Shown here piece after piece: positions 1 through 48,866 of a stretch of DNA of 64,000 nucleotides (the stretch's first letter is position 1; every line of letters begins with the position of its first letter). Source of the stretch: Antedon mediterranea. Taxonomy: Eukaryota > Animalia > Echinodermata. The stretch spans positions 3,090,201 to 3,154,200 of the forward strand of contig NC_092670.1 in the NCBI RefSeq assembly GCF_964355755.1, written 5' to 3'. The notes beneath the pieces are model-generated. The model saw only the letters and a program-made list of their open reading frames with translations. It did no database searches and was not told where the DNA came from. A program made the translations under genes and the position numbers.

Positions 1-1452
1 TAGGTTGAGGACAAAAGGAAGTGTTCACGTTGGTATTATGACCTGAACTGAAGAATATGATATGTTGTTATTGCTGAATTTTATTATTTAAATTCATATA
101 TAGTATACACAGTATAATCTGTATCCATATCACATACAGTGTAGAATAGGTGAAATTACGGGACCCGCTATTTATTGCAATTTTTAACATGTTGACGGTT
201 TTAAAATGAAACGCGAAGGTAGCAATTCCGAAAGGAAATTATCTCAGCAACAACGTATTAGCGTGTAGAAGAAATTTGAATACGTGAAATATTGATGCGC
301 GCTCTTTTAAATGTAATGAATTATGACGCAAAAGATGAAAATACGACCTTTTTTATTTAACTGGCCATATGATGACGTCACAACATCCGATTGGCAAAAT
401 TTTTACATAATTTCGTATCTACAATCCAATAGCTTCCAGACAAAGTTTTAATCGTGATTATCACATTTTATTCTTACGAGCTATAACAGATTAAAATTTA
501 CTGTAAAGATGAAATTAATGCCACACGTGATTTAAATTTTTAGGCACGATGACGTCAAAAAAATTAAAATATTTTTAACTCATGCGAAAGATACTTGATT
601 GACCTAGACAATATCAAAATCGGGGTGAAAATGGAAAACGGATAAGTGGAGATGCGCTCTATTCAATGTGATGAGCTATGACGAAAGATACAAAAATCCT
701 AAATTTTATATTCGCGTGGCCATACGATGACGTCATAATGTCCGGTTACCCATATTAATACCTGATCCGATATCTACAACTCATCTACTTCCAGAATATG
801 TCATCCACAAAAATTTGACCGTCTAGTTTAGAAATTACGACTGTTTAAAAAAAGGCATATTTTAAACGAATTTTTTAACCTTTTCATAAAAAACGCGCGC
901 AAATTGTCCAATTCGACGTGCTCGTATGACGTATCTTTAAGTCGAAATTGTTTAAAATTTGGTAAAATTACTAGAAAAGGCTGAAAAAACATAAATCACG
1001 CGAAAAAAATACGTTTTCAATGCTACGTGCGCACCGTACACGTAAAAATGTGCGCACGCGTGGGAATTTTTGACATGCTCAAAACGACATGAAACGCGTA
1101 GAAAGTTGATTAGAAATTAATTTTGCGCATTTTGAAATTTTAAATGCGCGTGCGCGCGTAACTTTGTGTAAAACACGCAATTTTTTTTCAACAGACAGTT
1201 AGCGCATAATATAAATTAAACTTTTGCAAAGTTTCATTTTAAAATGTTGTTTGGTTTTCGACATATGTTAAATACGAGAAAATCGTTAAATCGCGCGTAC
1301 GTCGCGTTGCGCAATTGTAAACATCATGAAAAGCTTCGCTTGACGACGTTACGTGAATGTCAAAATGTTAACATAGTTAACAAAATGTTATGTTTGCAAG
1401 TTTTAGAGAAAAGCGTTACACAAAAATCATACAGAAAGAAAGAAGATGAAAA

Positions 1453-4400
1453 CTAGACATGAAACTCGTCACTTTGACGAGTTAGTTATCCGCACGACAA
1501 ACGCCACGTGCACGCCATACGTTGCAATATTGCACACGGAAAAAGATTATGGCATTATGACCTAAACCGAAGACTATGATATGTTGTTATTGCTGAATTC
1601 TATTATTTTGATTCATATATAGTATACACAGTGTAATCTGTATACATATCACATACAGTGTAGAATAGGGGAAATTACGGGACCCGCTATTTATTGCAAT
1701 TTTTAACATGTTCATGGTTTTAAAATGAAACGCGAAGGTAGCAATTTTGGAAGGAAATTATCTCAGCAACAACATATTAACGTGTAGAAGAAATTTGAAT
1801 AGGTGAAATATTAATGCGCGCTCTTTTAAATGTAATGAACTATGACGCAAAATATGAAAATACGACTTTTTTTATTTAACTGGCCATATGATGACGTCAC
1901 CACATCCGATTGGCAAAATTTTCACATTATTTTGTATCTACAATCCAATAGCTTCAAGAAAACGTTTTAATCGTGATTATCACATTTTATTCTTACGAGC
2001 TATAACAGATTGAAATTTACTGTAAAGATGAAATTAATGCCACACGTAATTTAAATTTTTAGGCATGATGACGTCATAAAAATTAAAATATTTTTAACTC
2101 ATGCTAAAGATAGTTGATTGACCTAGACAATATCAAAATCGGGGTGAAAATGGAAAACGGATAAGTGGAGATGCGCTCTATTAAATGTGAGGAGTTATGA
2201 CGAAAGATACAAAAATCCTAAATTTCATATTCGCGTGGCCTTACGATGACGTCACAATGTCCGGTTAGCCATATTAATGCATGATCTGATATCTACAACT
2301 CATCAACTTTCAGAATATGTAATAAAAATAATTTTTACCGTTTAGTTTAGAAACTACGATTGTTTAAAAAAAGGCTTAATTTTGACGAATTTTTGAAGAT
2401 TTTCATCAAAAAAGCGCGAAAATTATCATATTCTACGTGCTCGTATGACGTAATTTGAAGTCGAAATTGTTTAAAAGTTGGTAAAATTACTAGAAAAGAC
2501 TGGAAAAACATAAATCACTCGAAAAAATGACGTTTTTAACGCTACGTGTGCAGCACGCGCGTAAAAATTTGCGCACGTGTGGGAATTTTTGACATGCTCA
2601 AAATGACATGAAACGCGTAGAAAGTTGATTAGAAATTGATTTTTCGCATTGTAAAATTTTTAACGCGCGTGCGCGCGTAACTTCGTGTAAAACATGCCAT
2701 TTTTAGTGCACAAAAAGTTAGCGCACGATATAAATTAGACTTTTGCTAAATTTCAATTTAAATTGTTATATGGTTTTCGATCTATGTTAAATACGCGAAA
2801 TTCATAAAAACGCGCGTAAGTCATGTTGCGCAACTCTGACGTCATTCAATTATAGGAAAGCACAACTTCACGTGATTGCCCATATGTTGACAAAGTTATA
2901 AAATGTTATCTTTACACGTTTTAGAGATACGCTCTGCACAAAAATGACAGAAAGAAAGAAGAACTAGACATGTAACTCGTCACTTTGACGAGTTAGTTAT
3001 CCGCACGACAAAGGCCACGTGCACGTCATACGTTAGAATATTGGACACAGAAAAAGATTATGGCAATATGACCTGAACTGAAGAATATGATATGTTGTTA
3101 TTGCTGAATTCTGTTATTTTGTGTCATATAGTATATACATAATCTGTATACATATTACATACAGTGTAGAATAGGTGAAATTACGGGAACCCCCGTTTAT
3201 TCCTATTTTTAACATGGCGACGGTATCAAAATGAAAAACTAAGACAGCAATTTGGGAAGGAAATTATCTCAGTAACAACATATTAACGTGCTGAAGAAAT
3301 TTGAATACGTGAAATATTGATGCACGCTCTTTTAAATGTAATGAATTATGACGCAAAAGATGAAAATACGACTTTTCTTATTTAACTGGCCATATGATGA
3401 CGTCACAACATCCGAATGGCAAAATGTTTACATGATTTTGTATCTACAATTCAATAGCTTCCAGAAAACGTTTTAATTGTGATTATCACATTTTATTCGT
3501 ACGAGCTATAACAGATTAAAATTTACTGTAAAGATGAAATTAAAGGCACACGTAATTCAAATTTTTAGGCGTGATGACGTCATAAAAATTAAAATATTTT
3601 TAACTCATGCAAAGGATAGTTGATTGACCTAGACAATATCAAAATCCGCGTGAAAATGGAAAACGGATAAGTGGAGATGCGCTCTATTAAATGTGATGCG
3701 CTATGACAAAAGAGAAAAAATCGCTATATTTTATATTAGAGTGGCCATACGATGACGTCATAATGTCCGGTTAGCCATATTGATGCATGATACGATATCT
3801 ACAACTCATCATCTTCCAGAATACGTAATAAAAACAACTTTTACCGTTTAGTTTAGAAACTACAACTGTTTTAAAAAAGGTATAATTTTGACAAATTTTG
3901 ATGAATTTTTGAACTTTTTCATAAAAAACGCACATAAATTATCCAATTCTACGGGCTCGTATGACTTGATTTTAAGTCGAAATCGTTTAAAAGTTGGTAA
4001 AATTACTAGAAAAGGCTGGAAAAACCTAAATCACGCAAAAAAAATGGTTTTCAACGCTACGTGCGCACCACGCGCGTAAAAATATTCGCGCGCGTGGGAA
4101 TTTTTTACATGGTCAAAATGACATGAAACGCGTAGAAAGTTGATTAGAAATTGATTTTTCGCATTTTAAAATTTTAAACGCGCGTGCGCGCGTAACTTCG
4201 TGTGAAACATGCCATTTTTTTCCCACAGTCAGTTAGCGCAGAATATAAATTAAACTTTTGCCAAGTTTCAATTTAAATTGTTATATGGTTTTTGATTTAT
4301 GTTAAATACGCGAAAATCGTTAAAACGCGCGTAATTCATGTTGCGCAATTCTGACGTCATTCAAAAATAAAAAAGCACAACTTCACGTGAATGCCCATAT

Positions 4401-4629
4401 GTTGACAAAGTTATGAAATGTTAACTGTACACGTTTTTGAGATATGCTCTGCACAAAAATGACAGAAAGAAAGAAGAATACAGAAAAAAAAAAAAGATGA
4501 TGAAACAGGACAGTTACAAGGAGTTATCCGTGAAAGCGGATAACTAATAATACAGAAAAAAAAAAAAAAAAAAAAGATGATGAAACAGGACAGTTACAAG
4601 GAGTTATCCGCCATAGTGCGGATAACTAA
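1453..4629 (-). mobile_element. Two copies of a divergent HINE subfamily B (2964-4547 nested in the linker of 1453-4629)
   Basis: The subTIR variant is TAGTTATCCGC/GCGGATAACTA. The sequence after the hairpin (ACGACAAA...CCACGTGCAC) and the cap (GATGATGAAACAGGACAGTTACAAGGAGTTATCCG...GCGGATAACTA) differ from subfamily A. The bodies are visibly diverged from subfamily A. Confidence 0.85.
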
Positions 4630-4688
4630 AAAAGATGATTTCGTACAATCACAAGAGGTTATCCTGCAACTTCGTTGCGGATAACCAA

Positions 4689-6262
4689 CTAGACATGTAA
4701 CTCGTCACTTTGACGAGTTTGGTTATCCGCCGCGCAAGTGGTGCAACATTAACATTAAGGGGATAGGTTGAGGACAAAAGGAAGTGTTCACGTTGGCATT
4801 ATGACCTGAACTGAAGAATATGATATGTTGTTATTGCTGAATTTTATTATTTAAATTCATATATAGTATACACAGTATAATCTGTATCCATATCACATAC
4901 AGTGACATACAGTGTAGAATAGGTGAAATTACGGGACCCGCTATTTATTGCAATTTTTAACATGTTGACGGTTTTAAAATGAAACGCGAAGGTAGTAATT
5001 CCGAAAGCAAATTATCTCAGCAACAACGTATTAACGTGTAGAAGAAATTTGAATACGTGAAATATTGATGCGCGCTCTTTTAAATGTAATGAATTATGAC
5101 GCAAAAGATGAAAATACGACCTTTTTTATTTAACTGGCCATATGATGACGTCACAACATCCGATTGGCAACATTTTTACATAATTTCGTATCTACAATCC
5201 AATAGCTTCCAGAAAAAGTCTTAATCGTGATTATCACATTTTATTCTTACGAGCTATAACAGATTAAAATTTACTGTAAAGATGAAATTACTGTCACACG
5301 TGATTTTAATTTTTAGGCATGATGACGTTAAGAAAATTAAAATATTTTTTACTCATGCGAAAGATAGTTGATTGACCTAGACAATGTCAAAATCGGGGTG
5401 AAAATGGAAAGCGGATAAGTGGAGATGCGCTCTATTCAATGTGATGAGCTATGACGAAAGATACAAAAATCCTAAATTTTATATTCGAGTGGCCATACGA
5501 TGACGTCACAATGTCCGGTTAGCCATATTAATACCTGATCCGATATCTACAACTCATCTACTTTCAGAATATGCCATCCATAAAAAGTTGACCGTCTAGT
5601 TTAGAAATTACGACTGTTTAAAAAAAGGCATATTTTAAACGAATTTTTTAACCTTTTCATAACAAACGCGCGCAAATTGTCCAATTCGACGTGCTCGTAT
5701 GACGTATCTTTAAGTCGAAATTGTTTAACATTTTGTAAAATTACTAGAAAAGGCTGGAAAAACATAAATCACGCAAAAAAAATACGTTTTCAATGCTACG
5801 TGCGCACCGCACACGTAAAAATGTGCGCACGCGTGGGAATTTTTGAAATGCTTAAAACGACATGAAACGCGTAGAAAGTTGATTAGAAATTAATTTTGCG
5901 CATTTTGAAATTTTAAATGCGCGTGCGCGCGTAACTTTGTGTAAAACACGGAATTTTTTTTCAACAGAAAGTTAGCGCATGATATAAATTAAACTTTTGC
6001 AAAGTTTCAAGTTGAAATGTTATTTGGTTGTCGAGCTATATTAAATACGACAAAATCGTTAAAAAGCGCGTAAGTCACGTTGCGCAATTGTAAACGTCAT
6101 GAAAAGCTTCGCTTGACGACGTTACGTAAATGTCAATATGTTAAGATAGTTACCGAAATGTTATGTTTGCGAGTTTTAGAGAAAAGCGTTACACAAAAAT
6201 CATACAGAATGATTTCGTACAATCACAAGAGGTTATCCTGCAACTTCGTTGCGGATAACCAA
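4689..6262 (-). mobile_element. Complete HINE copy, subfamily A (both termini, linker microsatellite deleted)
   Basis: Runs from CTAG+hairpin+subTIR at 4689 to GGTTATCCTGCAACTTCGTTGCGGATAACCAA at 6262. Essentially identical to 10922-12495. Confidence 0.85.
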
Positions 6263-9200
6263 CTAGACATGTAACTCGTCACTTTGACGAGTTTGGTTAT
6301 CCGCCGCGCAAGTGGTGCAACATTAACATTAAGGGGATAGGTTGAGGACAAAAGGAAGTGTTCACGTTGGCATTATGACCTGAACTGAAGAATATGATAT
6401 GTTGTTATTGCTGAAATTTATTGTTTAAATTCATATATACTGTAGTATACACAGTATAATCTGTATCCATATCACATACAGTGTAGAATAGGTGAAATTA
6501 CGGGACCCGCTATTTATTGCAATTTTTAACATGTTGACGGTTTTAAAATGAAACGCGAAGGTAGCAATTCCGAAAGGAAATTATCTCAGCAACAACGTAT
6601 TAGCATGTAGAAGAAATTTGAATACGTGAAATATTGATGCGCGCTCGTTTAAATGTAATGAATTATGACGCAAAAGATGAAAATACGACCTTTTTTATTT
6701 AACTGGCCATATGATGACGTCACAACATCCGATTGGCAACATTTTTACATAAAATCGTATCTACAGTCCAATAGCTTCCAGAAAAAGTTTTAATCGTGAT
6801 TATCACATTTTATTCTTACGAGCTATAACAGATTAAAATTTACTGTAAAGATGAAATTAATGCCACACGTGATTTAAATTTTTAAGCACGATGACGTAAA
6901 AAAAATTAAAATATTTTTAACTCATGCGAAAGATAGTTGATTGACCTAGACAATATCAAAATCGGGGTGAAAATGGAAAACGAATAAGTGGAGAGGCGCT
7001 CTATTCAATGTGATGACCTATGACGAAAGATACAAAAATCCTAAATTTTATATTCGTGTGGCCATACGATGACGTCACAATGTCCGGTTAGCCATATTAA
7101 TACCTGATCCGATATCTACAACTCATCAACTTCCAGAATATGTCATCCACAAAAAGTTGACCGTGTAGTTTAGAAATTACGACTGTTTAAAAAAAGGCAT
7201 ATTTTTAACGGAATTTTGAACTTTTTCATCAAAAACACGCGCAAATTGTCCAATTCGACGTGCTCGTATGACGTAACTTTAAGTCGAAATTGTTTAAAAT
7301 TTGATAAAATTACTAGAAAAGGCTGGAAAAACATAAATCACGCGAAAAAAATATGTTTTCAATGCTACGTGCGCACCGCACACGTAAAAATTTGCGCACG
7401 CGTGGGAATTTTTTACATGCTTAAAACGACATGAAACGCGTAGAAAGTTGATTAGAAATTAATTTTGCGCATTTTGAAATTTTAAATGCGCGTGCGCGCG
7501 TAACTTTGTGTAAAACACGCAATTTTTTTTCAACATAAAGTTAGCGCATGATATAAATTAAACTTTTGGAAAGTTTCAATTTGAAATGTTATTTGGTTTT
7601 CGACCTATGTTAAATACGAGGAAATCGTTAAATCACGCGTAAGTCACGTTGCGCAATTGTAAACGTCATGAAAAGCTTCGCAGCACATCTTCATGTGCAT
7701 GACGATATGTTGAGAAAGTTACAAAATGTTATGTTTACAAGTTTTAGAGAAAAGCGTTCCACAAAAATCATACAGAAAGAAAGAAGATCAAGAAAAAGAC
7801 TAGACATGTAACTCGTCACTTTGACGAGTTTGGTTATCCGCCGCGCAAGTGGTGCAACATTAACATTAAGGGGATAGGTTGAGGACAAAAGGAACTGTTC
7901 ACGTTGGCATTATGACCTGAACTGAAGAATATGATATGTTGTTATTGCTGAATTTTATTATTTAAATTCATATATAGTATACACAGTATAATCTGTATCC
8001 ATATCACATACAGTGTAGAATAGGTGAAATTACGGACCCGCTATTTATTGCAATTTTTAACATGTTGACGGTTTTAAAATGAAACGCGAAGGTAGCAATT
8101 CCGAAAGGAAATTATCTCAGCAACAACGTATTAGCGTGTAGAAGAAATTTGAATACGTGAAATATTGATGCGCGCTCTTTTAAATGTAATGAATTATGAC
8201 GCAAAAGATGAAAATACGACCTTTTTTATTTAACTGGCCATATGATGACGTCACAACATCCGATTGGCAACATTTTTACATAATTTCGTATCTACAATCC
8301 AATAGCTTCCAGAAAAAGTTTTAATCGTGATTATCACATTTTATTCTTACGAGCTATAACAGATTAAAATTTACTGTAAAGATGAAATTGATGCCACACG
8401 TGATATAAATTTTTAGGCATGATGACGTCAAAAAAATTAAAATATTTTTAACTCATGCGAAAGATAGTTGATTGACCTAGACAATATCAAAATCGGGGTG
8501 AAAATGGAAAACGGATAAGTGGAGATGCGCTCTATTCAATGTGATGAGCTATGACGAAAGATACAAAAATCCTAAATTTTATATTCGCGTGGCCATACGA
8601 TGACGTCACAATGTCCGGTTAGCCATATTAATACCTGATCCGACATCTACAACTCATCTACTTCCAGAATATGTCATCCACAAAAAGTTGACCGTCTAGT
8701 TTAGAAATTACCACTGTTTAAAAAAAGGCATATTTTAAACGAATTTTTTAACCTTTTCATAAAAAACGCGCGCAAATTTTCCAATTCGACGTGCTCGTAT
8801 GACGTATCTTTAAGTCGAAATTGTTTAAAATTTGGTAAAATTACTAGAAAAGGCTGGAAAAACATAAATCACGCGAAAAAAATACGTTTTCAATGCTACG
8901 TGCGCACCGCACACGTAAAAATGTGCGCATGCGTGGGAATTTTTGACATGCTTAAAACGACATGAAACGCGTAGAAAGTTGATTATAAATTAATTTTGCG
9001 CATTTTGAAATTTTAAATGCGCGTGCGCGCGTAACTTTGTGTAAAACACGCAATTTTTTTTCAACAGAAAGTTAGCGCATGATATAAATTAAACTTTTGC
9101 AAAGTTTCACTTTAAAATGTTATTTGGTTTTCGACATATGTTAAATACGAGAAAATCGTTAAATCGCGCGTACGTCACGTTGCGCAATTGTAAACATCAT

Positions 9201-12200
9201 GAAAAGCTTCGCTTGACGACGTTACATAAATGTCAAATTGTTAACATAGTTCACAAAATGTTATGTTTGCAAGTTTTAGAGAAAAGCGTGCCACAAAAAT
9301 CATACAGAAAGAAAGAAGAGAAATAAAAAGTTGATGATGTTGATGATGATTTCGTACAATCACAAGAGGTTATCCTGCAACTTCGTTGCGGATAACCAAC
9401 TAGACATGTAACTCGTCACTTTGACGAGTTTGGTTATCCGCCGCGCAAGTGGTGCAACATTAACATTAAGGGGATAGGTTGAGGACAAAAGGAAGTGTTC
9501 ACGTTGGCATTATGACCTGAACTGAAGAATATGATATGTTGTTATTGCTGAATTTTATTGTTTAAATTCATATATAGTATACACAGTATAATCTGTATCC
9601 ATATCACATACAGTGTAGAATAGGTGAAATTACGGGACCCGCTATTTATTGCAATTTTTAACATGTTGACGGTTTTAAAATGAAACGCTAAGGTAGCAAT
9701 TCCGAAAGAAAATTATCTCAGCAACAACGTATTAACGTGTAGAAGAAATTTGAATACGTGAAATATTGATGCGCGCTCTTTTAAATGTAATGAATTATGA
9801 CGCAAAAGATGAAAATACGACCTTTTTTATTTAACTGGCCATATGATGACGTCACAACATCCGATTGGCAACATTTTTACATAATTTCGTATCTACAATC
9901 CAATAGCTTCCAGAAAAAGTTTTAATCGTGATTATCACATTTTATTCTTACGAGCTATAACAGATTAAAATTTACTGTAAAGATGAAATTGATGCCACAC
10001 GTGATTTAAATTTTTAGGCATGACGACGTCAAAAAAATAAAAATATTTTTAACTCATGCGAAAGATAGTTGATTGACCTAGACAATATCAAAATCGGGGT
10101 GAAAATGGAAAACGGATAAGTGGAGATGCGCTCTATTCAATGTGATGAGCTATGACGAAAGATACAAAAATCCTAAATTTTATATTCGCGTGGCCATACG
10201 ATGACGTCACAATGTCCGGTTAGCCATATTAATACCTGATCCGACATCTACAACTCATCTACTTCCAGAATATGTCATCCACAAAAAGTTGACCGTCTAG
10301 TTTAGAAATTACGACTGTTTAAAAAAAGGCATATTTTAAACGAATTGTTTAACCTTTTCATAAAAAACGCGCGCAAATTGTCCAATTCGACGTGCTCGTA
10401 TGACGTATCTTTAAGTCGAAATTGTTTAAAATTTGGTAAAATTACTAGAAAAGGCTGGAAAAACATAAATTACGCGAAAAAAATACGTTTTCAATGCTAC
10501 GTGCGCACCGCACACGTAAAAATGTGCGCACGCGTGGGAATTTTTGACATGCTTAAAACGACATGAAACGCGTAGAAAGTTGATTATAAATTAATTTTGC
10601 GCAATTTGAAATTTTAAATGCGCGTGCGCGCGTAACTTTGTGTAAAACACGCAATTTTTTTTCAGCAGAAAGTTAGCGCATGATATAAATTAAACTTTTG
10701 CAAAGTTTCACTTTAAAATGTTATTTGGTTTTCGACATATGTTAAATACGAGAAAATCGTTAAATCGCGCGTACGTCACGTTGCGCAATTGTAAACGTCA
10801 TGAAAAGCTTCGCATGACGACGTTACGTAAATGTCAAAATGTTAACATAGTTAACGAAATGTTATGTTTGCGAGTTTTAGAGAAAAGCGTTACACAAAAA
10901 TCATACAGAAAGAAAGAAGAACTAGACATGTAACTCGTCACTTTGACGAGTTTGGTTATCCGCCGCGCAAGTGGTGCAACATTAACATTAAGGGGATAGG
11001 TTGAGGACAAAAGGAAGTGTTCACGTTGGCATTATGACCTGAACTGAAGAATATGATATGTTGTTATTGCTGAATTTTATTATTTAAATTCATATATAGT
11101 ATACACAGTATAATCTGTATCCATATCACATACAGTGACATACAGTGTAGAATAGGTGAAATTACGGGACCCGCTATTTATTGCAATTTTTAACATGTTG
11201 ACGGTTTTAAAATGAAACGCGAAGGTAGTAATTCCGAAAGCAAATTATCTCAGCAACAACGTATTAACGTGTAGAAGAAATTTGAATACGTGAAATATTG
11301 ATGCGCGCTCTTTTAAATGTAATGAATTATGACGCAAAAGATGAAAATACGACCTTTTTTATTTAACTGGCCATATGATGACGTCACAACATCCGATTGG
11401 CAACATTTTTACATAATTTCGTATCTACAATCCAATAGCTTCCAGAAAAAGTCTTAATCGTGATTATCACATTTTATTCTTACGAGCTATAACAGATTAA
11501 AATTTACTGTAAAGATGAAATTACTGTCACACGTGATTTTAATTTTTAGGCATGATGACGTTAAGAAAATTAAAATATTTTTTACTCATGCGAAAGATAG
11601 TTGATTGACCTAGACAATGTCAAAATCGGGGTGAAAATGGAAAGCGGATAAGTGGAGATGCGCTCTATTCAATGTGATGAGCTATGACGAAAGATACAAA
11701 AATCCTAAATTTTATATTCGAGTGGCCATACGATGACGTCACAATGTCCGGTTAGCCATATTAATACCTGATCCGATATCTACAACTCATCTACTTTCAG
11801 AATATGCCATCCATAAAAAGTTGACCGTCTAGTTTAGAAATTACGACTGTTTAAAAAAAGGCATATTTTAAACGAATTTTTTAACCTTTTCATAACAAAC
11901 GCGCGCAAATTGTCCAATTCGACGTGCTCGTATGACGTATCTTTAAGTCGAAATTGTTTAACATTTTGTAAAATTACTAGAAAAGGCTGGAAAAACATAA
12001 ATCACGCAAAAAAAATACGTTTTCAATGCTACGTGCGCACCGCACACGTAAAAATGTGCGCACGCGTGGGAATTTTTGAAATGCTTAAAACGACATGAAA
12101 CGCGTAGAAAGTTGATTAGAAATTAATTTTGCGCATTTTGAAATTTTAAATGCGCGTGCGCGCGTAACTTTGTGTAAAACACGGAATTTTTTTTCAACAG

Positions 12201-12670
12201 AAAGTTAGCGCATGATATAAATTAAACTTTTGCAAAGTTTCAAGTTGAAATGTTATTTGGTTGTCGAGCTATATTAAATACGACAAAATCGTTAAAAAGC
12301 GCGTAAGTCACGTTGCGCAATTGTAAACGTCATGAAAAGCTTCGCTTGACGACGTTACGTAAATGTCAATATGTTAAGATAGTTACCGAAATGTTATGTT
12401 TGCGAGTTTTAGAGAAAAGCGTTACACAAAAATCATACAGAATGATTTCGTACAATCACAAGAGGTTATCCTGCAACTTCGTTGCGGATAACCAACTAGA
12501 CATGTAACTCGTCACTTTGACGAGTTTGGTTATCCGCCGCGCAAGTGGTGCAACATTAACATTAAGGGGATAGGTTGAGGACAAAAGGAAGTGTTCACGT
12601 TGGCATTATGACCTGAACTGAAGAATATGATATGTTGTTATTGCTGAAATTTATTGTTTAAATTCATATA

Positions 12671-13999
12671 CAGTCAACTCTCCCAATACCGGACTCTCCC
12701 AAAACCGGAATTCACGAAAAACCGGACTTTTTTGGAGGGCCCAATTTGTCCCTATTCTAAATGTACTGTAATTTATCATGAAAACCGGAATACCCAATTC
12801 CGGATTCCGGACAAATTATGAAGTACAAAACACAAAAATTAGCGTCTGAAAACCGGACTGACAGTTAAAAAACTCCAAATATTTACGAAAACAACGTAAC
12901 ATCGTCGTCGCTGACTCGGATTCAATACATTCACAATGTACAAACGCTTTTAACCATACCCTCACCATGCATGAAGTGCGCGACGTTTCGCGGTACGATC
13001 AAATAATGTTGCCATGGAGCACACACTGTGATTGACAGGTCAGTTTCATTGTTAACCCACGAGGCGGCAATTGCTTTGTTGCGTATCGAACTGCGGTGGG
13101 CTTTTTCACATCGAAGCGCTATGTCTTAATGTCTATTGTTTTTAGCAGGGAGTTGTTAACAACTCCCTGTTTTTTAGCATATGAATTGTTTTTTAATAAA
13201 GTTCAATTTACATTCCACTTTGTGTCTTTGTTTTGTTTAAATTATTGTTAAATTCACAATTGCAATAGGACTTTAAAAAGGAATGTTTCACTAAAAATGT
13301 GCATCATTATAAATTTGGAAATCATTATGGCAAAACGTAAACGGAATGAACTTGACTTAACTAGTGTTAATAAACTTTGAAATGTTACCAATTAATTATT
13401 GTGTCATTATTGCTTGGCTCGTTTACCTAATCAATTTTCATCATTGCTATCAAATTACGTCAAAATAAAGGAGCTTAAAAAACATGTGGTCTAGGTGTGG
13501 GCGTTTTTATTTGATTATGACACCTCTGCACATGCGCATCAATCAAAGCCCTTCACACCCATGCTGCTGCTGCTAGCTAGCTCACGAAAAACAATAAACA
13601 GACCGAAATTATGTTCACCGTACGTACGTACATAGGCCTTTTTGCCGTTAAAAACACATTGAGAAACAATAATTTACTATTGTAATGTTTTATTGGTACA
13701 GTAAATAATGTAACTTTTAAAAAAGGTAAATTGAATTACTGTAGCTTAATATTAATAAAGTAGGCCTAGCCTAGGCCTATCAGTATTTATTTAATTAAAA
13801 CTAGATTGACACAATCATAGCCTAGCCTAGGCCTTCCCTACGCTAGGAGACCGTACCGGGCAGCATTCGGACCGGTGATTCAAAGCATTTTCAGTGACAA
13901 CGTGATGACTTAAAAAATATGTTTTCAGGAAACCGGACTTTCGAAAAACCGGAAAATATATGCCCGCCCAAGGGTGTCCGGTATTGGGAGAGTTGACTG
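12671..13999. mobile_element. Non-autonomous Tc1/mariner-superfamily (pogo/Tigger-like) element, 1329 bp
   Basis: Perfect 24-bp TIR CAGTCAACTCTCCCAATACCGGAC, TA target duplication and subterminal AAAACCGGA repeats. The empty site is visible in the paralogous unit at ~6431-6450. A short remnant ATG-AKRKRNELDL at 13327 resembles a pogo transposase N-terminus. Confidence 0.9.
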
Positions 14000-15427
14000 T
14001 ATACTGTAGTATACACAGTATAATCTGTATCCATATCACATACAGTGTAGAATAGGTGAAATTACGGGACCCGCTATTTATTGCAATTTTTAACATGTTG
14101 ACGGTTTTAAAATGAAACGCGAAGGTAGCAATTCCGAAAGGAAATTATCTCAGCAACAACGTATTAGCATGTAGAAGAAATTTGAATACGTGAAATATTG
14201 ATGCGCGCTCGTTTAAATGTAATGAATTATGACGCAAAAGATGAAAATACGACCTTTTTTATTTAACTGGCCATATGATGACGTCACAACATCCGATTGG
14301 CAACATTTTTACATAAAATCGTATCTACAGTCCAATAGCTTCCAGAAAAAGTTTTAATCGTGATTATCACATTTTATTCTTACGAGCTATAACAGATTAA
14401 AATTTACTGTAAAGATGAAATTAATGCCACACGTGATTTAAATTTTTAAGCACGATGACGTAAAAAAAATTAAAATATTTTTAACTCATGCGAAAGATAG
14501 TTGATTGACCTAGACAATATCAAAATCGGGGTGAAAATGGAAAACGGATAAGTGGAGATGCGCTCTATTCAATGTGATGAGCTATGACGAAAGATACAAA
14601 ATCCTAAATTTTATATTTGCGTGGCCATACGATGACATCACAATGTCCGGTTAGCCATATTAATACCTGATCCAATATCTACAACTCATCTACTTCCAGA
14701 AAATGCCATCCACAAAAAGTTGACCGTTTAGTTTAGAAATTACGACTGTTTTAAAAAAGGCATATTTTAAACGAATTTTTTAACGTTTTCATAAAAAACG
14801 CGCGCAAATTGTCCAATTCGACGTGCTCGTATGACGTATCTTTAAGTCAAAATTGTTTAAAATTTGGTAAAATTACTAGAAAAGGCTGGAAAAACATAAA
14901 TCACGCGAAAAAAATACGTTTTCAATGCTACGTGCGCTCCGCACACGTAAAAATGTGCGCATGCGTGGGAATTTTTGACATGCTTAAACCGACATGAAAC
15001 GCGTAGAAAGTTGATTAGAAATTAATTTTGCGCATTTTGAAATTTTAAATGCGCGTGCGCGCGTAACTTTGTGTAAAACACGCAATTTTTTTTCAACAGA
15101 AGGTTAGCGCATGATATAAATTAAACTTTTGCAAAGTTTCACTTTAAAATGTTATTTGGTTTTCGACATATGTTAAATACGAGAAAATCGTTAAATCGCG
15201 CGTACGTCACGTTGCGCGATTGTAAACATCATGAAAAGCTTCGCTTGACGACGTTACATAAATGTCAAAATGTTAACATAGTTAACAAAATGTTATGTTT
15301 GCAAGTTTTAGAGAAAAGCGTTACACAAAAATCATACAGAAAGAAAGAAGATTAAGACTAGACATGTAACTCGTCACTTTGACGAGTTTGGTTATCCGCC
15401 GCGCAAGTGGTGCAACATTAACATTAA

Positions 15428-18328
15428 AATGGATATGAAAGGATTTTAAAATTTCACAAAAAGGACTTTGTATGAATCCTTTTAATGTTAATAAACAGCA
15501 CACAAAAAATTAGATTCAAATACCTAGTAGAAATTGAGAAATAAACAAATTAAATTTTGGTATAAAACGTCCGCAAAATGGCCGACCAACTGGCACGCCA
15601 TCTTAATTTTTATGAACGTTCTATACGCACGTACGAGATCGTCAAATTTAGAGTTTGAAACACCCGGGGTTGTAGCCACGGCAGCAGTCGTTTTGTGATT
15701 GGTTAATGAATTTTAATACAGTCCAATCACCGCCTTGTCTCGTTCGCGGACTGTGTGGTGTAAACAAAATAAACAAACCCATGCTACACGAGACTCGCGT
15801 GTTGCAAGCTCCCTGTTGCTGCAGTCGTAGAAAATATCGATATTTCACAAATCAATAAAAAGTTATGTCTGCAAAGATTGTACGTGAAAAGAAGAAAGTG
15901 TGTATTTGTACTTCTCACACTAAACCACTCACGCAGACTACAAATTAGGCTAGGTCTAGTAGACTATAGTTTCTTCTAAATTCGCTAGTAGTAGGCTAGG
16001 CCTACACATGGAGTTACTCCATGGCCTACAGTACAAGAGAGTAGCAGTCGCCGGTCCACCGACGAACCTCCAGGAAGTGGACAAGGCGCGGGCGTAGACG
16101 TATGTAAAAGGCGACGTAAATAAAAAAGGTAAGCTTGTGTTGAACTTGTTTTTGGCTCTGACTTTTGTTATTGACTAATATAGTAATATAATAATACTAA
16201 TAATTAAAGTAGAGCAGAGAGGAGGTGAGGCCGAGAGGATTATTATAGTTTAGTTAGTAACTGTAGTGTAATTAAATAATAACCTCTTTCTGTTTGTTAC
16301 CAAGTCATAAAATATAATACTATAGGGCCTAGAGGTAGGATTGAATAAAAATAATAGTACATTTCCATCCATTTATTGGTCTTATCTTTGCAGATTTATG
16401 GAATCAACAGTACATGAGATGGCTTTGAAGAACTGTAATAGTACTAGTAATAAAATTGTAAACATCAAATTATATGGCAGAAATAGTGTGTGGAATGAAT
16501 TTTATTGAACAAATGCATCATAATGAGTTTGGAACAAGCAGGATTTTTCAAACAGGACATAAATTACTTTTGAGACCTGAGACATTTTAATTCTATCAAC
16601 ACCAGCCAGCTCCATCATATTCAAGAGATGGATTCTTTCATAAATGTCCATTGTACATAGTATTTGGCTAAATAAATAAAAAAAGAAGTACAGTAGTGGT
16701 TTATTTGTTTATATACCCAGACCCATTTAGATGGTTAAAAACAAACACTATATGATGCACTGCTACTAGTGTACTGTCTGGTAGTACATTACCATAGTTA
16801 CAGTATGACTGTAACCCTAGCACTCGCGTCTAAAGAATTCTATTATGCATATTTTACTATTCTTCATAAATATTTAGTTCTGTAATTTTAATTGTCTGCG
16901 CTCATTCTATACTTGGTGTCTTAGTATACTGCATAAATGTATCGTGCAAGCATGATCCAAGTAGCATCTATTATAAAGTACTCTGGGTATCTTTCTATTC
17001 ACCTGAAAAAAGGAAAATGAATAAGCACATGTTTATCTGCCCTCAAAACAAAATAATAATTTAGTATAATGTATTATGTAGGTTTGATCAACAGTTTAAA
17101 ATAGCAATGCTCAGTATCTGTTACCTTAATATTATAATTTGACTCTAACATTTGCGCTTCCATTCCAATCAATAAATACATTTGCTTATCCCGTCCATCA
17201 ATTATCATAATTGCACTCCAATTATAGACCTGTAGGTAGGTAAAAATACAAATGAATTGTTTATTTACTGTATACTGTACTGTATATGATACAAGCTGAA
17301 ATACCCCTAACTAGGCCTGGCCTGTTATAACCTTTATTACTACATTAGAGAAAATCCAACTCTATTCATTTTATTGGGAATCATAATATTTAGTATTCAG
17401 TGTTGCCTAGCCTACTAGCTAGTAGGGCGGCATGTAATAACAAAAAAATATTTCAATAATACGTTAGTCAGGACACTACAGCACACAACAATATTAATTA
17501 ATAAACGTACTTATAAATAATGTGTATATACATAATACAGTAACACAATTGTGCCTACCATTAACACCCTCAACGATACATCAAGGAGCATACGCTCTCA
17601 GCTCACCTCTGGCCGGGCGACTAAACATCGTATCCAGCAGTCATCACTACTAAAAAGGCCTAGGCCTAGTAGCTAGCTCCAGGCCATGGCATTGTCAAAC
17701 ACCATTTACTCGTCCAACCGTTTCTTCAAAACGATGTTAACATCCGTGTTAACAAGACGATGTGGACGAATTTCCATCAATTTCAGTTAATTACAACGAA
17801 ATAATAATAAAATGAATGTTTCAATAATACGTGTATAATAAATAGCGAAATAAACATCGCTCGCGAGGAGGGTCGAGAGAGAGGCCAAGGTGGTCGACTC
17901 TGTGATTCTCACGCATGCGCAAAATAACTCCGTGTACCCAGCAAGATAGGCATTTGGCTATGAATTTCGTAAAAGATGGCCTTGAAAAACGAAATTAAAA
18001 TCCGTTTAAAAAAAAACTTGGTTGATAATATGAATTAATTTTATTCGATTAGGCTAACATACTTATCCAAGAATAAAAATATCAAAGCAATAAGTAATTA
18101 CTACCATGCTTTTGCATCAATCAATGATTTACTGCTAAATTCCTATCTCTGTAATACAAAAATAACTTTTAGTGACGTCACAAAAAGTTTTTCACAGGTT
18201 TCTCAGGGGCGTTTTGAGGGCGTTGTCGTCCTCCAAAACATTAAGTATGACTATGGCAAGCTTAAAACTGATTGATCTACACGTTGAGCCAATAAAATGA
18301 TATTGCTAGGAACCCTTTCATATCCATT
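15428..18328. mobile_element. TTAA-specific non-autonomous DNA transposon, 2901 bp, Kolobok-like
   Basis: TTAA is duplicated (15424-15427 and 18329-18332) at the ACATTAAGGGG site that is empty in the other units. 15-bp TIR AATGGATATGAAAGG. The purine-starting terminus fits Kolobok better than piggyBac (CCC). Confidence 0.8.
16907..17780 (-). pseudogene. Decayed 3-exon gene inside the Kolobok-like element
   Basis: GT-AG exons in matching phase 0: one ending at 17607 (..DCWIRCLVARPE, upstream in-frame stops), 17229-17125 (VYNWSAIMIIDGRDKQMYLLIGMEAQMLESNYNIK) and one starting at 17002 (VNRKIPRVLYNRCYLDHAC...). No recognisable homology. Confidence 0.4.
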
Positions 18329-21300
18329 TTAAGGGGATAGGTTGAGGACAAAAGGAAGTGTTCACGTTGGCATTATGACCTGAACTGAAGAATATGATCT
18401 GTTGTTATTGCTGAATTTTATTATTTAAATTCATATATAGTATACACAGTATAATCTGTATCCATATCACATACAGTGTAGAATAGGTGAAATTACGGGA
18501 CCCACTATTTATTGCAATTTTTAACATGTTGATGGTTTTAAAATGAAACGCGAAGTTAGCAATTCCGAAAGCAAATTATCTCAGCAACAACGTATTAGCG
18601 TGTAGAAGAAATTTGAATACGTTAAATATTGATGCGCGCTCTTTTAAATGTAATGAATTATGACGAAAAAGATGAAAATACGACCTTTTTTATTTAACTG
18701 GCCATATGATGACGTCACAACATCCGATTGGCAACATTTTTACATAATTTCATATCTACAATCCAATAGCTTCCAGAAAAAGTTTTAATCGTGATTATCA
18801 CATTTTATTCTTACGAGCTATAACAGATTAAAATTTACTGTAAAGATGAAATTGATGCCACACGTGATTTAAATTTTTAGGCATGATGACGTCAAAAAAA
18901 TTAAAATATTTTTAACTCATGCGAAAGATAGTTGATTGACCTAGACAATATCAAAATCGGGGTGAAAATGGAAAACGGATAAGTGGAGATGCGCTCTATT
19001 CAATGTGATGAGCTATGACGAAAGATAGAAAAATCCTAAATTTTATATTCGCGTGGCCATACGATGACGTCACAATGTCCGGTTAGCCATATTAATACCT
19101 GATCCGATATCTACAACTCATCTACTTCCAGAATATGTCATCCACAAAAATTTGACCGTCTAGTTTAGAAATTACGACTGTTTAAAAAAAGGCATATTTT
19201 AAACGAATTTTTTAACCTTTTCATAAAAAACGCGCGCAAATTGTCCAATTCGACGTGCTCGTATGACGTATCTTTAAGTCGAAATTGTTTAAAATTTGGT
19301 AAAATTACTAGAAAAGGCTGGAAAAACATAAATCACGCGAAAAAAATACGTTTTCAATGCTACGTGCGCACCGCACACGTAGAAATGTGCGCACGCGTGG
19401 GAATTTTTGACATGCTTAAAACGACATGAAACGCGTAGAAAGTTGATTATAAATTAATTTTGCGCATTTTGAAATTTTAAATGTGCGTGCGCGCGTAACT
19501 TTGTGTAAAACACGCAATTTTTTTTCAACAGAAATTTAGCGCATGATATAAATTAAACTTTTGCAAAGTTTCACTTTAAAATGTTATTTGGTTTTCGACA
19601 TATGTTAAATACGATAAAATCGTTAAATCGCGCGTACGTCACGTTGCGCAATTGTAAACATCATGAAAAGCTTCGCTTGACGACGTTACATAAATGTCAA
19701 AATGTTAACATAGTTAACAAAATGTTATGTTTGCGAGTTTCAGAGAAAAGCGTTACACAAAAATCATACAGAAAGAAAGAAGAAGAATAAAAAGTTGACT
19801 AGACATGTAACTCGTCACTTTGACGAGTTTGGTTATCCGCCGCGCAAGTGGTGCAACATTAACATTAAGGGGATAGGTTGAGGACAAAAGGAAGTGTTCA
19901 CGTTGGCATTATGACCTGAACTGAAGAATATGATATGTTGTTATTGCTGAATTTTATTATTTAAATTCATATATAGTATACACAGTATAATCTGTATCCA
20001 TATCACATACAGTGACATACAGTGTAGAATAGGTGAAATTACGGGACCCGCTATTTATTGCAATTTTTAACATGTTGACGGTTTTAAAATGAAACGCGAA
20101 GGTAGCAATTCCGAAAGGAAATTATCTCAGCAACAACGTATTAGCGTGTAGAAGAAATTTTAATACGTGAAATATTGATGAGCGCTCTTTTAAATGTAAT
20201 GAATTATGACGCAAAAGATGAAAATACGACCTTTTTTATTTAACTGGCCATATGATGACGTCACAACATCCGATGGGCAACATTTTTACATAATTTCGTA
20301 TCTACAATCCAATAGCTTCCAGAAAAAGTTTTAATCGTGATTATCACATTTTATTCTTACGAGCTATAACAGATTAAAATTTACTGTAAAGATGAAATTG
20401 ATGCCACACGTGATTTAAATTTTTAGGCATGATGACGTCAAAAAAATTAAAATATTTTTAACTCATGCAAAAGATAGTTGATTGACCTAGACAATATCAA
20501 AATCTGGGTGAAAATGGAAAACGAATAAGTGGAGATGCGCTCTATTCAATGTGATGAGCTATGACGAAAGATACAAAAATCCTAAATTTTATATTCGCGT
20601 GGCTATACGATGACGTCACAATGTCCGGTTAGCCATATTAATACCTGATCCGATACCTACAACTCATCTACTTCCATATATGTCATCCACAAAAAGTTGA
20701 CCGTCTAGTTTAGAAATTACGACTGTTTAAAAAAAGGCATATTTTAAACGAATTTTTTAACCTTTTCATTAAAAACGCGCGCAAATTGTCCAATTCGACG
20801 TGCTCGTATGACGTATCTTTAAGTCGAAATTGTTTAAAATTTGGTAAAATTATTAGAAAAGGCTGGAAAAACATAAATCACGCGAAAAAAATACGTTTTC
20901 AATGCTACGTGCGCACCGCACACGTAAAAATGTGCGCACGCGTGGGAATTTTTGACATGCTTAAAACGACATGAAACGCGTAGAAAGTTGATTATAAATT
21001 AATTTTGCGCATTTTGAATATTTAAATGCGCGTGCGCGCGTAACTTTGTGTAAAACACGCAATTTTTTTTCAACAGAAAGTTAGCGCATGAAATAAATTA
21101 AACTTTTGCAAAGTTTCACTTTAAAATGTTATTTGGTTTTCGACATATGTTAAATACGAGAAAATCGTTAAATCGCGCGTACGTCACGTTGCGCAATTGT
21201 AAACATCATGAAAAGCTTCGCTTGACGACGTTACATAAATGTCAAAATGTTAACATAGTTAACAAAATGTTATGTTTGCAAGTTTTAGAGAAAAGCGTTA

Positions 21301-23061
21301 CACAAAAATCATACAGAAAGAAAGAAGATTAAGAAAAAGATGTTGATGATTTCGTACAATCACAAGAGGTTATCCTGCAACTTCGTTGCGGATAACCAAT
21401 GATGATGATGATGATGATTTCGTACAATCACAAGAGGTTATCCTGCAACTTCGTTGCGGATAACCAACTAGACATGTAACTCGTCACTTTGACGAGTTTG
21501 GTTATCCGCCGCGCAAGTGGTGCAACATTAACATTAAGGGGATAGGTTGAGGACAAAAGGAAGTGTTCACGTTGGCATTATGACCTGAACTGAAGAATAT
21601 GATATGTTGTTATTGCTGAATTTTATTATTCAAATTCATATATAGTGTACACAGTATAATCTGTATCCATATCACATACAGTGTAGAATAGGTGAAATTA
21701 CGGGACCCGCTATTTATTGCAATTTTTAACATGTTGACGGTTTTAAAATGAAACGCGAAGGTAGCAATTCCGAAAGGAAATTATCTCAGCAACAACGTAT
21801 TAGCATGTAGAAGAAATTTGAATACGTGAAATATTGATGCGCGCTCGTTTAAATGTAATGAATTATGACGCAAAAGATGAAAATACGACCTTTTTTATTT
21901 AACTGGCCATATGATGACGTCACAACATCCGATTGGCAACATTTTTACATAATTTCGTATCTACAGTCCAATAGCTTCCAGAAAAAGTTTTAATCGTGAT
22001 TATCACATTTTATTCTTACGAGCTATAACAGATTAAAATTTACTGTAAAGATGAAATTAATGCCACACGTGATTTAAATTTTTAAGCACGATGACGTAAA
22101 AAAAATTAAAATATTTTTAACTCATGCGAAAGATAGTTGATTGACCTAGACAATATCAAAATCGGGGTGAAAATGGAAAACGGATAAGTGGAGATGCGCT
22201 CTATTCAATGTGATGAGCTATGACGAAAGATACAAAATCCTAAATTTTATATTTGCGTGGCCATACGATGAAATCACAATGTCCGGTTAGCCATATTAAT
22301 ACCTGATCCAATATCTACAACTCATCTACTTCCAGAAAATGCCATCCACAAAAAGTTGACCGTTTAGTTTAGAAATTACGACTGTTTTAAAAAAGGCATA
22401 TTTTAAACGAATTTTTTAACGTTTTCATAAAAAACGCGCGCAAATTGTCCAATTCGACGTGCTCGTATGACGTATCTTTAAGTCAAAATTGTTTAAAATT
22501 TGGTAAAATTACTAGAAAAGGCTGGAAAAACATAAATCACGCGAAAAAAATACGTTTTCAATGCTACGTGCGCTCCGCACACGTAAAAATGTGCGCATGC
22601 GTGGGAATTTTTGACATGCTTAAACCGACATGAAACGCGTAGAAAGTTGATTAGAAATTAATTTTGCGCATTTTGAAATTTTAAATGCGCGTGCGCGCGT
22701 AACTTTGTGTAAAACACGCAATTTTTTTTCAACAGAAGGTTAGCGCATGATATAAATTAAACTTTTGCAAAGTTTCACTTTAAAATGTTATTTGGTTTTC
22801 GACATATGTTAAATACGAGAAAATCGTTAAATCGCGCGTACGTCACGTTGCGCGATTTTAAACATCATGAAAAGCTTCGCTTGACGACGTTACATAAATG
22901 TCAAAATGTTAACATAGTTAACAAAATGTTATGTTTGCAAGTTTTAGAGAAAAGCGTTACACAAAAATCATACAGAAAGAAAGAAGATTAAGAAAAAGAT
23001 GATGATGATGATTTCGTACAATCACAAGAGGTTATCCTGCAACTTCGTTGCGGATAACCAA

Positions 23062-24232
23062 CTAGAAATGTCATCAACATTGGTTCCCCGGGGGTTAGCG
23101 CAATGAATCGGGTGCATTCTAAGAAGTAGAGGCCCGGCCCGGGTTAGCCTAGTACTAGGCGTAGGCCGAGGATAGGCCCCTTAGGTACACACATTCATAC
23201 TTTACCTATTAAACATCCTTGATCGTGGACCATGATAATATGTAATATTGTATATATAGTAAACTTCCGGAAAAAATTGTTGAATGAGTTGGGATAAGAA
23301 AGGCTGTTGGGGATTTTTGTCGGTAAGCATAGGCATCACCGGTGTTTACCATTTTCGAACATCAGCAGGCTACGGGGCGCCGTTTAGGACATTGCTAATT
23401 TGGTCGCAATATTACTATTTAGTCAATCGAACATTCATTTCGTCAATATAAAATTCATTTTGTCAACACGTAACTCATTTTGTGTTGGAAAAATTTATTC
23501 TGTGTAGACAAAATTCATTTTGTCTCGACATAATTAATTCTGTGTAAACAAAAATCATTTGCGTTCAAAGCTCTTCGTATTTCTTCATCAGTTCCTTTCT
23601 GAACTTAGTCAACCCCGAATTCAGTTATTTGTAAGTGGAAACATTATTAAATAATTATCAACTACTGAGGTTATGGAAAGTTACCTACACTAGAATTATC
23701 TTCATCATTGGTTGCCCGGGGGTTAGCGCAATGAATCGGGTGCATTCTAAGAAGGCCCGGCTTAGCTAAGTGTACGCCGATGGTAGGCCCCTTAGGTACA
23801 CACATTTATACCTTACCTATTAAACTTCCTTGAACGTGGACCATGGTATTATGTAATATTGTATATATAGTAAACTCCCGAAAAAAGGCAGATGAATGAG
23901 GTGGGATAAGAAAGACTGTTAAGGATTTTTTCGGTAAAGCATATAGGCATCACCGGCGTTTGCCATTTCCGTACATCAACAGGCTACGGGGCGCAGTTTG
24001 GGACATTGCTAAGTTGTTGGAAATATTACTATTTAGTCAATACAACATTCATTTTGTCAATACAAAATGCATTTTGTCAACACATACCTCATTTTGTGTT
24101 GACCAAATTTATTCTGTGTAGACAAAATTCATTTCGTCTCGACACAATTACTTCTGTGTAAACAAAATGTATTTGCTGTCACTGCTCTTCATACTTCTTC
24201 ATCTAAGTTCATTTCTGAACTTATTCAACCTT
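23062..24232. repeat. Diverged tandem duplication (~630 bp) of the CTAG terminus of the large element
   Basis: ACTAGAA...CATTGGTT(C/G)CCCGGGGGTTAGCGCAATGAATCGGGTGCATTCTAAGAAG occurs at 23061 and 23689. Each copy contains ~21-bp AAATTCATTTTGTC subrepeats. Confidence 0.85.
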
Positions 24233-24239
24233 ATGTTCC

Positions 24240-24502: not shown

Positions 24503-24534
<32 letters not shown>
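24240..24534 (+). mobile_element. 3' fragment of an L2/CR1-group LINE
   Basis: Translates with a frameshift as TKFYGSRSF/ASVSLWNALPIEICQATSTSAFKSLLKTHL, matching the L2/CR1 ORF2 C-terminal motif. It is followed by a GTAAAGCGC... 3' UTR and a (TTA)n tail. Confidence 0.8.
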
Positions 24535-44697: not shown

Positions 44698-44789
44698 TTT
44701 TGTAGCCATACGTAACGATTTTTTGTAGCATTTTTGCAGAATAAATAAATTAGTAATTGTTATAGAATTTGACTTGTTTATTATACATA

Positions 44790-48850: not shown

Positions 48851-48866
48851 TGTTGTAACAAAAAAC

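What the first reader, a model, noticed from the sequence alone, without database searches (positions are those of the whole stretch)
1430..4700. Russian-doll self-insertion: displaced 5' caps stack in last-in-first-out order
Seen in sequence: three consecutive bodies (A 1-1452, B 1453-2963, B 2964-) have no cap between them. Three caps then follow in the order B (ends 4547), B (4548-4629), A (4630-4688), like matched parentheses. Removing the inner copy rejoins GAAAGAAGAA|TAATACAGAAAA, and removing the next rejoins GATGAAAA|AAAAGATGATTTCG. Both restore intact linkers with no TSD. Inference: the array grew by repeated, orientation-specific transposition into the ~40-bp microsatellite linker of resident copies. 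Unequal crossover or rolling-circle concatemers alone do not explain this. It amounts to a self-targeting (homing) Helentron that builds its own macrosatellite. Helentron tandem arrays are known, but I do not know of this nested, cap-stacking mechanism being described.
Basis: partly seen in the sequence, partly recalled or inferred. Interest (0 to 1): 0.9.

Follow-up and report, generated by a model that had tools for sequence, protein, structure and literature searches.

The report
Rolling-circle transposons nested inside themselves
Copies of a small non-coding rolling-circle transposon sit inside one another with their end-pieces stacked in matching order, most likely because new copies keep landing in a short repeat near the end of older copies, a habit already proposed for fungal relatives and seen here with whole nests preserved.

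Summary
Observation confirmed. Bodies A, B, B at 1-4469 lack caps between them, and caps B, B, A follow at 4495-4688. The 12-bp subterminal repeats are subfamily-specific and pair each cap type with its body type. The element is a 1.6-kb non-autonomous Helentron (HINE/DINE-1 type) on the minus strand. Of 16 CTAG ends in the window, 9 abut a cut linker, 7 abut a cap end exactly, and none lies in a body. Four nests close; their linker halves pair best in last-in-first-out order (best of 24 pairings). Contigs of one sample show five more junction types. The reading is overstated in three ways. Four of 8 cap-less bodies do not close within the window. A 1,751-bp exact duplicate and mosaic copies show recombination also shapes the array. 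Homing is not separated from a liking for GAAA-type tracts. The mechanism is not new: self-insertion stacking 5' termini was proposed for Fusarium Helitron2 (PMC5148889; up to five termini, PMC13342296), and this scan noted a similar nest in another genome (e1-9378304). What this adds is whole nests preserved across subfamilies.

The parts
1..1452 (-). Outer copy A1: body and inner part of its linker (its CTAG end lies left of the window)
1453..2963 (-). Middle copy B1: 3' CTAG end, stem-loop (1465-1481), 3' subTIR (1482-1493), body, inner part of linker; B-like at both ends, more A-like in alignment columns about 200-900
2964..4547 (-). Inner copy B2, complete: CTAG end, stem-loop, 3' subTIR (2993-3004), body, linker, 5' cap hairpin with subTIR (4536-4547)
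4548..4629 (-). Displaced outer linker half and B-type 5' cap, assigned to B1 (82 nt)
4630..4688 (-). Displaced outer linker half and A-type 5' cap, assigned to A1 (59 nt)
4689..23061 (-). Rest of array 1: nine A copies, five opening on exact head-to-tail joins and four on cut linkers; two copies carry unrelated insertions
19799..21467 (-). Second closed nest: complete A copy 19799-21399 inside the linker of the copy that opens at 15358; displaced piece 21400-21467 (68 nt)
10920..12670 (.). Exact 1,751-bp duplicate of 4687-6437 (recombination, conversion or assembly duplicate)
21468..23061 (-). Complete un-nested A copy (1,594 bp) used as reference
23062..24230 (-). Two copies (84.6% alike) of a different CTAG-ended unit, the first joined exactly to the A cap end
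56929..64000 (-). Array 2: five A bodies, the first lacking its CTAG end; runs off the window
61535..63115 (-). Third nest: complete A copy 61535-63100 inside the linker of the copy that opens at 60016; the displaced linker piece 63101-63115 is cut again by a copy opening at 63116
44766..54023 (+). Helentron coding region (OTU protease, DUF6570, Helitron Rep, PIF1 helicase, endonuclease) as two open frames separated by one stop; candidate, unproven, autonomous partner

Best explanation
This is an array of a non-coding HINE/DINE-1-type Helentron in which new copies most likely inserted, through a transposase supplied from elsewhere, into the short GAAA/GAT linker about 60-80 nt inside the 5' end of resident copies, or exactly at a resident terminus, and which recombination likely reshuffled afterwards. 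Shown: the anatomy; 9 linker joins and 7 exact head-to-tail joins among 16 CTAG ends; cap type matching body type; linker halves that rejoin; an exact duplicate and mosaic copies. Inferred: each insertion pushes the host's 60-80 nt 5' piece to the far side of the newcomer, so repeated rounds stack caps last-in-first-out. If the element is read as TT...CTAG, it always lands before a T, after an A in 3 of 4 closed nests and after a T in 1. The linker is probably favoured because it is the one long pyrimidine tract on the element strand and lies beside the cap hairpin that the transposase is expected to bind. Unequal crossover between 94-99% identical bodies, or read-through of a 3' end, would leave the cap-less joins that do not close.
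For: Junction parse: 9 linker, 7 cap-end and 0 body joins of 16; 4 of 11 caps followed by a linker piece. Subfamily-specific 12-bp subTIRs match cap to body. For the four closed nests, last-in-first-out pairing has total edit distance 7, next best 13, best of 24. Against A-rich or T-rich sites in the element, 7 of 7 linker hits has P 2.5e-8 to 4.6e-4 by threshold, if independent (the window has 8 distinct linker joins). Neighbouring A copies are no more alike than non-neighbours (96.9%, n=12, against 96.8%, n=79), unlike single-circle concatemers. In contigs of one sample, 7 of the 12 rows shown in table 5c touch a terminus; they give 6 junction types, all linker-to-CTAG, cap-to-linker or cap-linker-CTAG, 5 of them not in the window (68 rows not shown). 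Twelve contigs leave the reference just before the CTAG end, with a linker-like consensus next to it (agreement 0.65). A loose-end consensus of 6 contigs carries the same eight-A linker variant that A1's halves give (agreement 0.75). Fusarium duplicated 5' pieces are 31-85 nt (PMC5148889), against 59, 68 and 82 nt here.
Against: Four of 8 cap-less bodies (7799, 10921, 15357, 58415) do not close within the window. The linker is short and low in complexity, and wrong partners can fit as well (15357 with 4630: distance 0; 7799 with 21400: distance 1). B1's rejoined linker is 3 nt longer than B2's. Inner copies are not measurably younger: B1 and B2 are 10% apart while host A1 is 1.25% from the A majority, and the inner copy at 61535 is 2.51% against 0.93% for its host. 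Twenty contigs leave the cap end into varied AT-rich sequence (agreement 0.53), so dispersed copies probably exist and their share is unknown. No autonomous partner with the same termini was found. The four runs are one sample, possibly the one the window came from.
Confidence: 0.72

Rival explanations
1. Aberrant circles plus recombination: the transposase sometimes starts at a T inside the linker and makes cap-less circles or concatemers, which integrate or recombine into resident copies; caps are then duplicated separately.
For: Exact head-to-tail joins are the known circle junction (PMC4778049 passages). Tandem truncated Helitrons are attributed to circular intermediates (as cited in PMC5148889). 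Four cap-less bodies do not close; copies are mosaic and one 1,751-bp block is exactly duplicated.
Against: It does not produce cap-to-linker joins that fall exactly on the 5' terminus (4 in the window, 2 more types) with halves that complement the upstream cut. The two B caps differ in their loops. Neighbours are not more alike than non-neighbours. It probably explains part of the array, not the nest at 1430-4700.
Confidence: 0.15
2. Composite transposition (the Fusarium Fig. 7 model run forward): nests formed elsewhere, and multi-cap or multi-body composites were later moved here as units, so the order in this array is inherited and not built in place.
For: Multi-5'-terminus FoHelis transpose as units (PMC5148889). 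Helitron 3' ends can be bypassed (PMC4778049). One cap-less junction type occurs twice in the window (10921, 58415) and at contig depth well above the rare deletion joints (1,971 against 42-102 in run X12; depth is only a rough guide).
Against: It still needs self-insertion as the first step. A three-deep nest closing perfectly needs no extra step. No identical composite with different flanks was seen in the window.
Confidence: 0.08
3. Assembly artefact in a high-copy repeat.
For: A 1,751-bp block is 100% identical at two places, the family is very abundant, and the 1430-4700 joins were not checked against reads.
Against: B1, B2 and their caps are distinct sequences; every join falls on an exact terminus; junctions of the same classes occur in independent contigs of sequencing runs.
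Confidence: 0.05

Closest known systems
FoHeli (Fusarium Helitron2) multiple 5' termini by self-insertion (Chellapan et al. 2016, PMC5148889, passages and section 10 read; PMC13342296, passages read)
   Same: Same transposon group; stacked 5' termini of similar length (31-85 nt there, 59-82 nt here) explained by a copy inserting just inside another's 5' end; up to five termini; three Metarhizium copies in tandem read as possible double insertion into a 5' end.
   Different: In the passages read, self-insertion is inferred mainly from extra termini on single elements, with one nested example. Here whole nests with all bodies remain, caps match bodies by subfamily, the site is a microsatellite linker, and the result is an array of more than 23 kb. 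Their supplements (Table S6, Figs S11-S13) were not opened and may show fuller nests.
HINE / DINE-1 non-autonomous Helentrons (Thomas et al. 2014, PMC4067079; oyster Cg_HINE, PMC7492417; passages read)
   Same: 12-bp subTIRs, inverted repeat beside the 5' subTIR, microsatellite next to the 5' end, 3' stem-loop, T-rich targets, no target duplication, variable terminal Ts, subfamily-specific changes in subTIRs.
   Different: The passages read describe tandem repeats inside elements and whole-element tandems, not insertion into the element's own microsatellite. Here 3 of 4 rebuilt sites read best as A then T, as for canonical Helitrons and proto-Helentron, though terminal Ts make this ambiguous.
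Xenopus HelenXT233 with two left termini (HELIANO, PMC11417382, passages read)
   Same: An HLE2 with two non-identical 5' termini in direct repeat, each marking a subfamily.
   Different: Only the stacked termini are described; no nested bodies or mechanism in the passages read.
Double insertion as a seed of satellite DNA (McGurk and Barbash 2018, PMC5932611) and Paramecium Helitrons inserting into one strand of telomeric repeats (PMC13085455); passages read
   Same: Repeated insertion at a preferred site builds same-orientation tandems; a strand-specific simple-repeat target fixes orientation.
   Different: Those targets are duplicated target sites or host repeats; here the target lies inside the element.

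Membership tests
HINE / DINE-1-like non-autonomous Helentron (HLE2) | 11-15 bp subterminal inverted repeats | tested here: met
   Perfect 12-bp pairs, different for A and B; feature from PMC4067079
HINE / DINE-1-like non-autonomous Helentron (HLE2) | Short inverted repeat close to the 5' subTIR (5' hairpin) | tested here: met
   Three caps fold with z -5.3 to -5.9
HINE / DINE-1-like non-autonomous Helentron (HLE2) | Stem-loop between 3' subTIR and 3' end | tested here: met
   9-10 bp stem in three 3' ends, about 10 nt from the end (z -2.1 to -4.1)
HINE / DINE-1-like non-autonomous Helentron (HLE2) | Microsatellite near the 5' end | tested here: met
   GAAA/GAT linker between body and cap
HINE / DINE-1-like non-autonomous Helentron (HLE2) | No long coding frame | tested here: met
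   No frame of 150 aa or more in the arrays
HINE / DINE-1-like non-autonomous Helentron (HLE2) | Insertion in TT or T-rich DNA without target duplication | tested here: inconclusive
   All 16 CTAG ends are followed by T on the element strand; rebuilt sites read A/T in 3 and T/T in 1 of 4; edit distances 0-3 leave no room for a long duplication, but 3 extra nt in B1 are unexplained
HINE / DINE-1-like non-autonomous Helentron (HLE2) | Termini shared with an autonomous Rep/helicase/endonuclease Helentron | tested here: inconclusive
   A Helentron coding region lies at 44766-54023 with A-like body sequence at 56621-56928 (90.6%), but no matching subTIR or stem-loop was found around it; no genome is held
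FoHeli-type self-insertion (multiple 5' termini) | Two or more 5' termini in direct repeat, each under 200 bp, on one 3' end | tested here: met
   Three caps at 4495-4688 and two at 21350-21467
FoHeli-type self-insertion (multiple 5' termini) | Multi-terminus composites found at unrelated loci, moved as units | not testable with these tools
   No genome assembly is held; run contigs are too short
Rolling-circle concatemer array | Neighbouring units near-identical, one 5' end per array | tested here: not met
   Neighbours 96.9% against non-neighbours 96.8%; 9 caps in array 1
Homing (structure-guided self-targeting) element | Insertion into own linker above what equal sequence tracts elsewhere receive | not testable with these tools
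   Enriched against other A-rich sites inside the element, but the comparison with unlinked GAAA/GAT tracts needs the genome

The most novel reading that the evidence does not exclude
The Helentron transposase is recruited by a resident copy's 5' cap hairpin and nicks within 0-80 nt of it, so the family truly homes to its own 5' ends, across subfamilies and even for a different CTAG-ended family (23062). Such a transposon would build its own macrosatellite as a safe landing site, with the stacked caps recording the order of insertions.
Probability: 0.3. Interest if true: 0.65.

Novelty: new variant of a known kind. Interest (0 to 1): 0.38.

Why it matters
The preserved nests give direct structural support for a self-insertion model that, in the passages read, rests mostly on leftover duplicated termini. 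They also supply internal empty sites that fix the element's ends and target bases, and they show a route from a dispersed rolling-circle transposon to a kilobase-unit satellite array that is neither concatemer insertion nor simple duplication. If homing is real, it makes Helentron target choice testable by counting junctions in one long-read data set. A specialist would find it neat but not very surprising.

Tried and rejected
No genome is held for the window, so the genome-wide test was replaced by laying run contigs. The second laying was mostly uninformative: the tool skipped 59870-59973 as repeat, so it gave no joints. Runs of two other organisms: one contig of X1 bridges the head-to-tail join with 0 differences at depth 7; none of the 8 listed X2 pieces meets the tool's 31-letter bridging rule. 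These are too thin to claim the habit in other species. A scan of metagenome contigs for the 3' end found 0 matches. The age test (inner younger than outer) was inconclusive. A search for shared termini around the Helentron coding region found none. The 23062 unit's ends do not fold significantly (z -0.38 and 0.71), so it is only a CTAG-ended neighbour, not a shown relative. Slippage duplication of caps was rejected because the cap end and the linker share no homology beyond one base. Global bracket matching was rejected: three A bodies stay open in array 1, unless their caps lie beyond 64000. Literature searches did not list a paper on HINEs inserting into their own microsatellite linker; the library lacks most subscription journals. 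Xiong 2016 and Coates 2010 (a Helitron-like family disrupting GAAA microsatellites) were seen as reference-list titles only. Look-ups of earlier findings by genome, by sequence and by a second word set were empty.
Full report
Observation. The window opens in an array of a roughly 1.6-kb repeat. A token parse finds 15 CTAG ends of families A and B, one more CTAG end of another unit at 23062, and 11 caps. At the finding, body A ends at 1452, B1 runs 1453-2963 and B2 opens at 2964, with no cap between them. Caps then end at 4547 (B), 4629 (B) and 4688 (A).

What the element is. Read on the minus strand, each complete copy has a 5' 12-bp subTIR folded back on a nearby inverted repeat (z -5.3 to -5.9), a 30-40 nt GAAA/GAT linker, a 1.5-kb body without long frames, a 3' subTIR, a stem-loop and a CTAG end. 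These are the DINE-1/HINE features listed in PMC4067079 (passages) and PMC7492417 (passages). The subTIR differs by one base between A and B, and in each family the 5' and 3' copies are exact complements, so cap type can be tied to body type. B differs from A mainly in the first and last 100-150 columns; B1 is more A-like in the middle. A Helentron coding region with OTU, DUF6570, Rep, PIF1 and endonuclease domains lies between the two arrays at 44766-54023, split by one stop. A-like body sequence follows at 56621-56928, but no shared termini were found, so its role as partner is unproven.

Evidence for nesting. Of 16 CTAG ends, 9 abut a cut linker, 7 abut a cap end with no extra base, and none lies in a body. 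Four of 11 caps are followed by a linker piece (4548, 4630, 21400, 63101). Pairing the four upstream cuts with these four pieces last-in-first-out gives edit distances 2, 3, 2 and 0 to the nearest intact linker: total 7, next best 13, best of 24 pairings. This is modest support, since the linker is low in complexity and some unrelated cuts fit as well. The stronger argument is that both sides of every join fall exactly on an element terminus, which recombination without homology does not give. Seven of 7 hits in the linker is unlikely against other A-rich or T-rich sites of the element (P 2.5e-8 to 4.6e-4, assuming independence). Neighbouring copies are no more alike than others (96.9% for 12 pairs, 96.8% for 79), so the units came from different source copies or were reshuffled.

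Beyond the window. No genome is held. Four runs of one sample hold 74-83% of the words of 21400-25400. Laid on the complete copy 21468-23061, 7 of the 12 rows shown in table 5c touch a terminus. They give six junction types: four linker-to-CTAG, one cap-to-linker and one cap-linker-CTAG. Five are not in the window. Another 68 rows of that table and 49 of table 5 were not shown. Depths of the two commonest types (1,971 in X12; 1,674 in X13 and 559 in X14) are tens of times those of rare deletion joints (42-102, 25-59 and 8-15), a rough hint that they recur. In one search the linker was skipped by the tool; loose ends gave a linker-like consensus before the CTAG end (12 contigs, agreement 0.65) and varied AT-rich sequence after the cap (20 contigs, agreement 0.53). 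So both nested and probably dispersed copies exist; their ratio was not measured.

Against the strong reading. Four of 8 cap-less bodies do not close, and three A bodies remain open when array 1 ends. The block 4687-6437 recurs at 10920-12670 with no mismatch. The copy at 12496 matches the copy at 6263 up to about column 735 and the copy at 21468 from about column 510 on, so crossover or conversion between bodies is recent. Inner copies are not shown to be younger. The linker region holds the element's only purine run of 11 nt or more, so a preference for such tracts on one strand explains both site and orientation without any recognition of self; Paramecium Helitrons give a parallel (PMC13085455, passages).

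Mechanism. Inferred from the above and from HUH biochemistry (single-strand cleavage, CTAG joined to a target T, exact head-to-tail circles, 3' bypass: PMC4778049, passages, shown for a Helitron1): a transposase in trans joins an incoming copy's CTAG end to a T in a resident's linker and its 5' TT to the base before, displacing 59-82 nt of the resident's 5' end. Repeats of this stack the caps. Exact head-to-tail joins arise by insertion at a terminus or by integration of circles; the data do not separate these. Crossover and read-through then unbalance the brackets. Confidence 0.72.

Comparison and novelty. It works like FoHeli self-insertion: multiple 5' termini of 31-85 nt, explained by a copy inserting into another, and three Metarhizium copies read as possible double insertion into a 5' end (PMC5148889, passages and section 10); up to five termini in PMC13342296 (passages). 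Xenopus HelenXT233 has two non-identical left termini (PMC11417382, passages). Double insertion as a seed of satellites is in PMC5932611 (passages); Helitron-derived tandem arrays in PMC12001565 (passages). No supplements were opened; those of PMC5148889 may show fuller nests. By anatomy the element is a HINE; two membership features are inconclusive. The scan noted a similar nest in another genome (e1-9378304; unchecked here). Searches did not list a description of whole nests built in the element's own microsatellite linker. The labels Tc1/mariner-like, Kolobok-like and LINE tail in the side notes are recalled, not from a call. Verdict: real, a new variant of a known kind, interest 0.38.

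Noticed in passing
window 44766-54023 (+): Near-intact Helentron coding region: herpes-tegument-like and OTU protease domains, then DUF6570, Rep, PIF1 and endonuclease, split by one stop at 48600-48602. It points opposite to the conventional 5'-3' direction of the flanking HINEs; if it is their partner the family would be of the 'HLE2-reverse' layout.
   Followed up: partly
window 33884-34099 (+): Exon-like frame with weak OB-fold hits (E 0.006-0.08, below curated cut-offs), possibly an RPA-like gene of the same Helentron, which would then span much of 24-57 kb.
   Followed up: partly
window about 12671-14000: 1.3-kb insertion with terminal inverted repeats in a TA-rich spot of one A copy, Tc1/mariner-like by recall; absent from the matching copy at 6263, so younger than that duplication or conversion.
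   Followed up: partly
window about 15428-18326: 2.9-kb insertion with terminal inverted repeats between TTAA sites in another A copy, Kolobok-like by recall.
   Followed up: no
window 23062-24230: Two 84.6% alike copies of a different CTAG-ended 630-bp unit with internal 20-bp repeats; the first is joined exactly to an A cap end, the second is followed by a probable LINE tail ending in a TTA run at 24506-24534.
   Followed up: partly
window 40205-40985: Old, inverted relative of the HINE (67-87% to the body) with its own CTAG end and stem-loop at about 40950-40985; its flank is also GAA/GAT-like.
   Followed up: partly
window 6193-6262, 12426-12495, 63031-63100: A linker-deletion allele (cap almost directly on the body) occurs three times and as a deep joint in three of four runs; these copies have lost the insertion hot spot and all three are intact.
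   Followed up: no
window 44199-44695 and 48507-48861: Minisatellites (14-bp and 21-bp units upstream of the coding region; a 54-bp unit inside it, spanning the stop).
   Followed up: no
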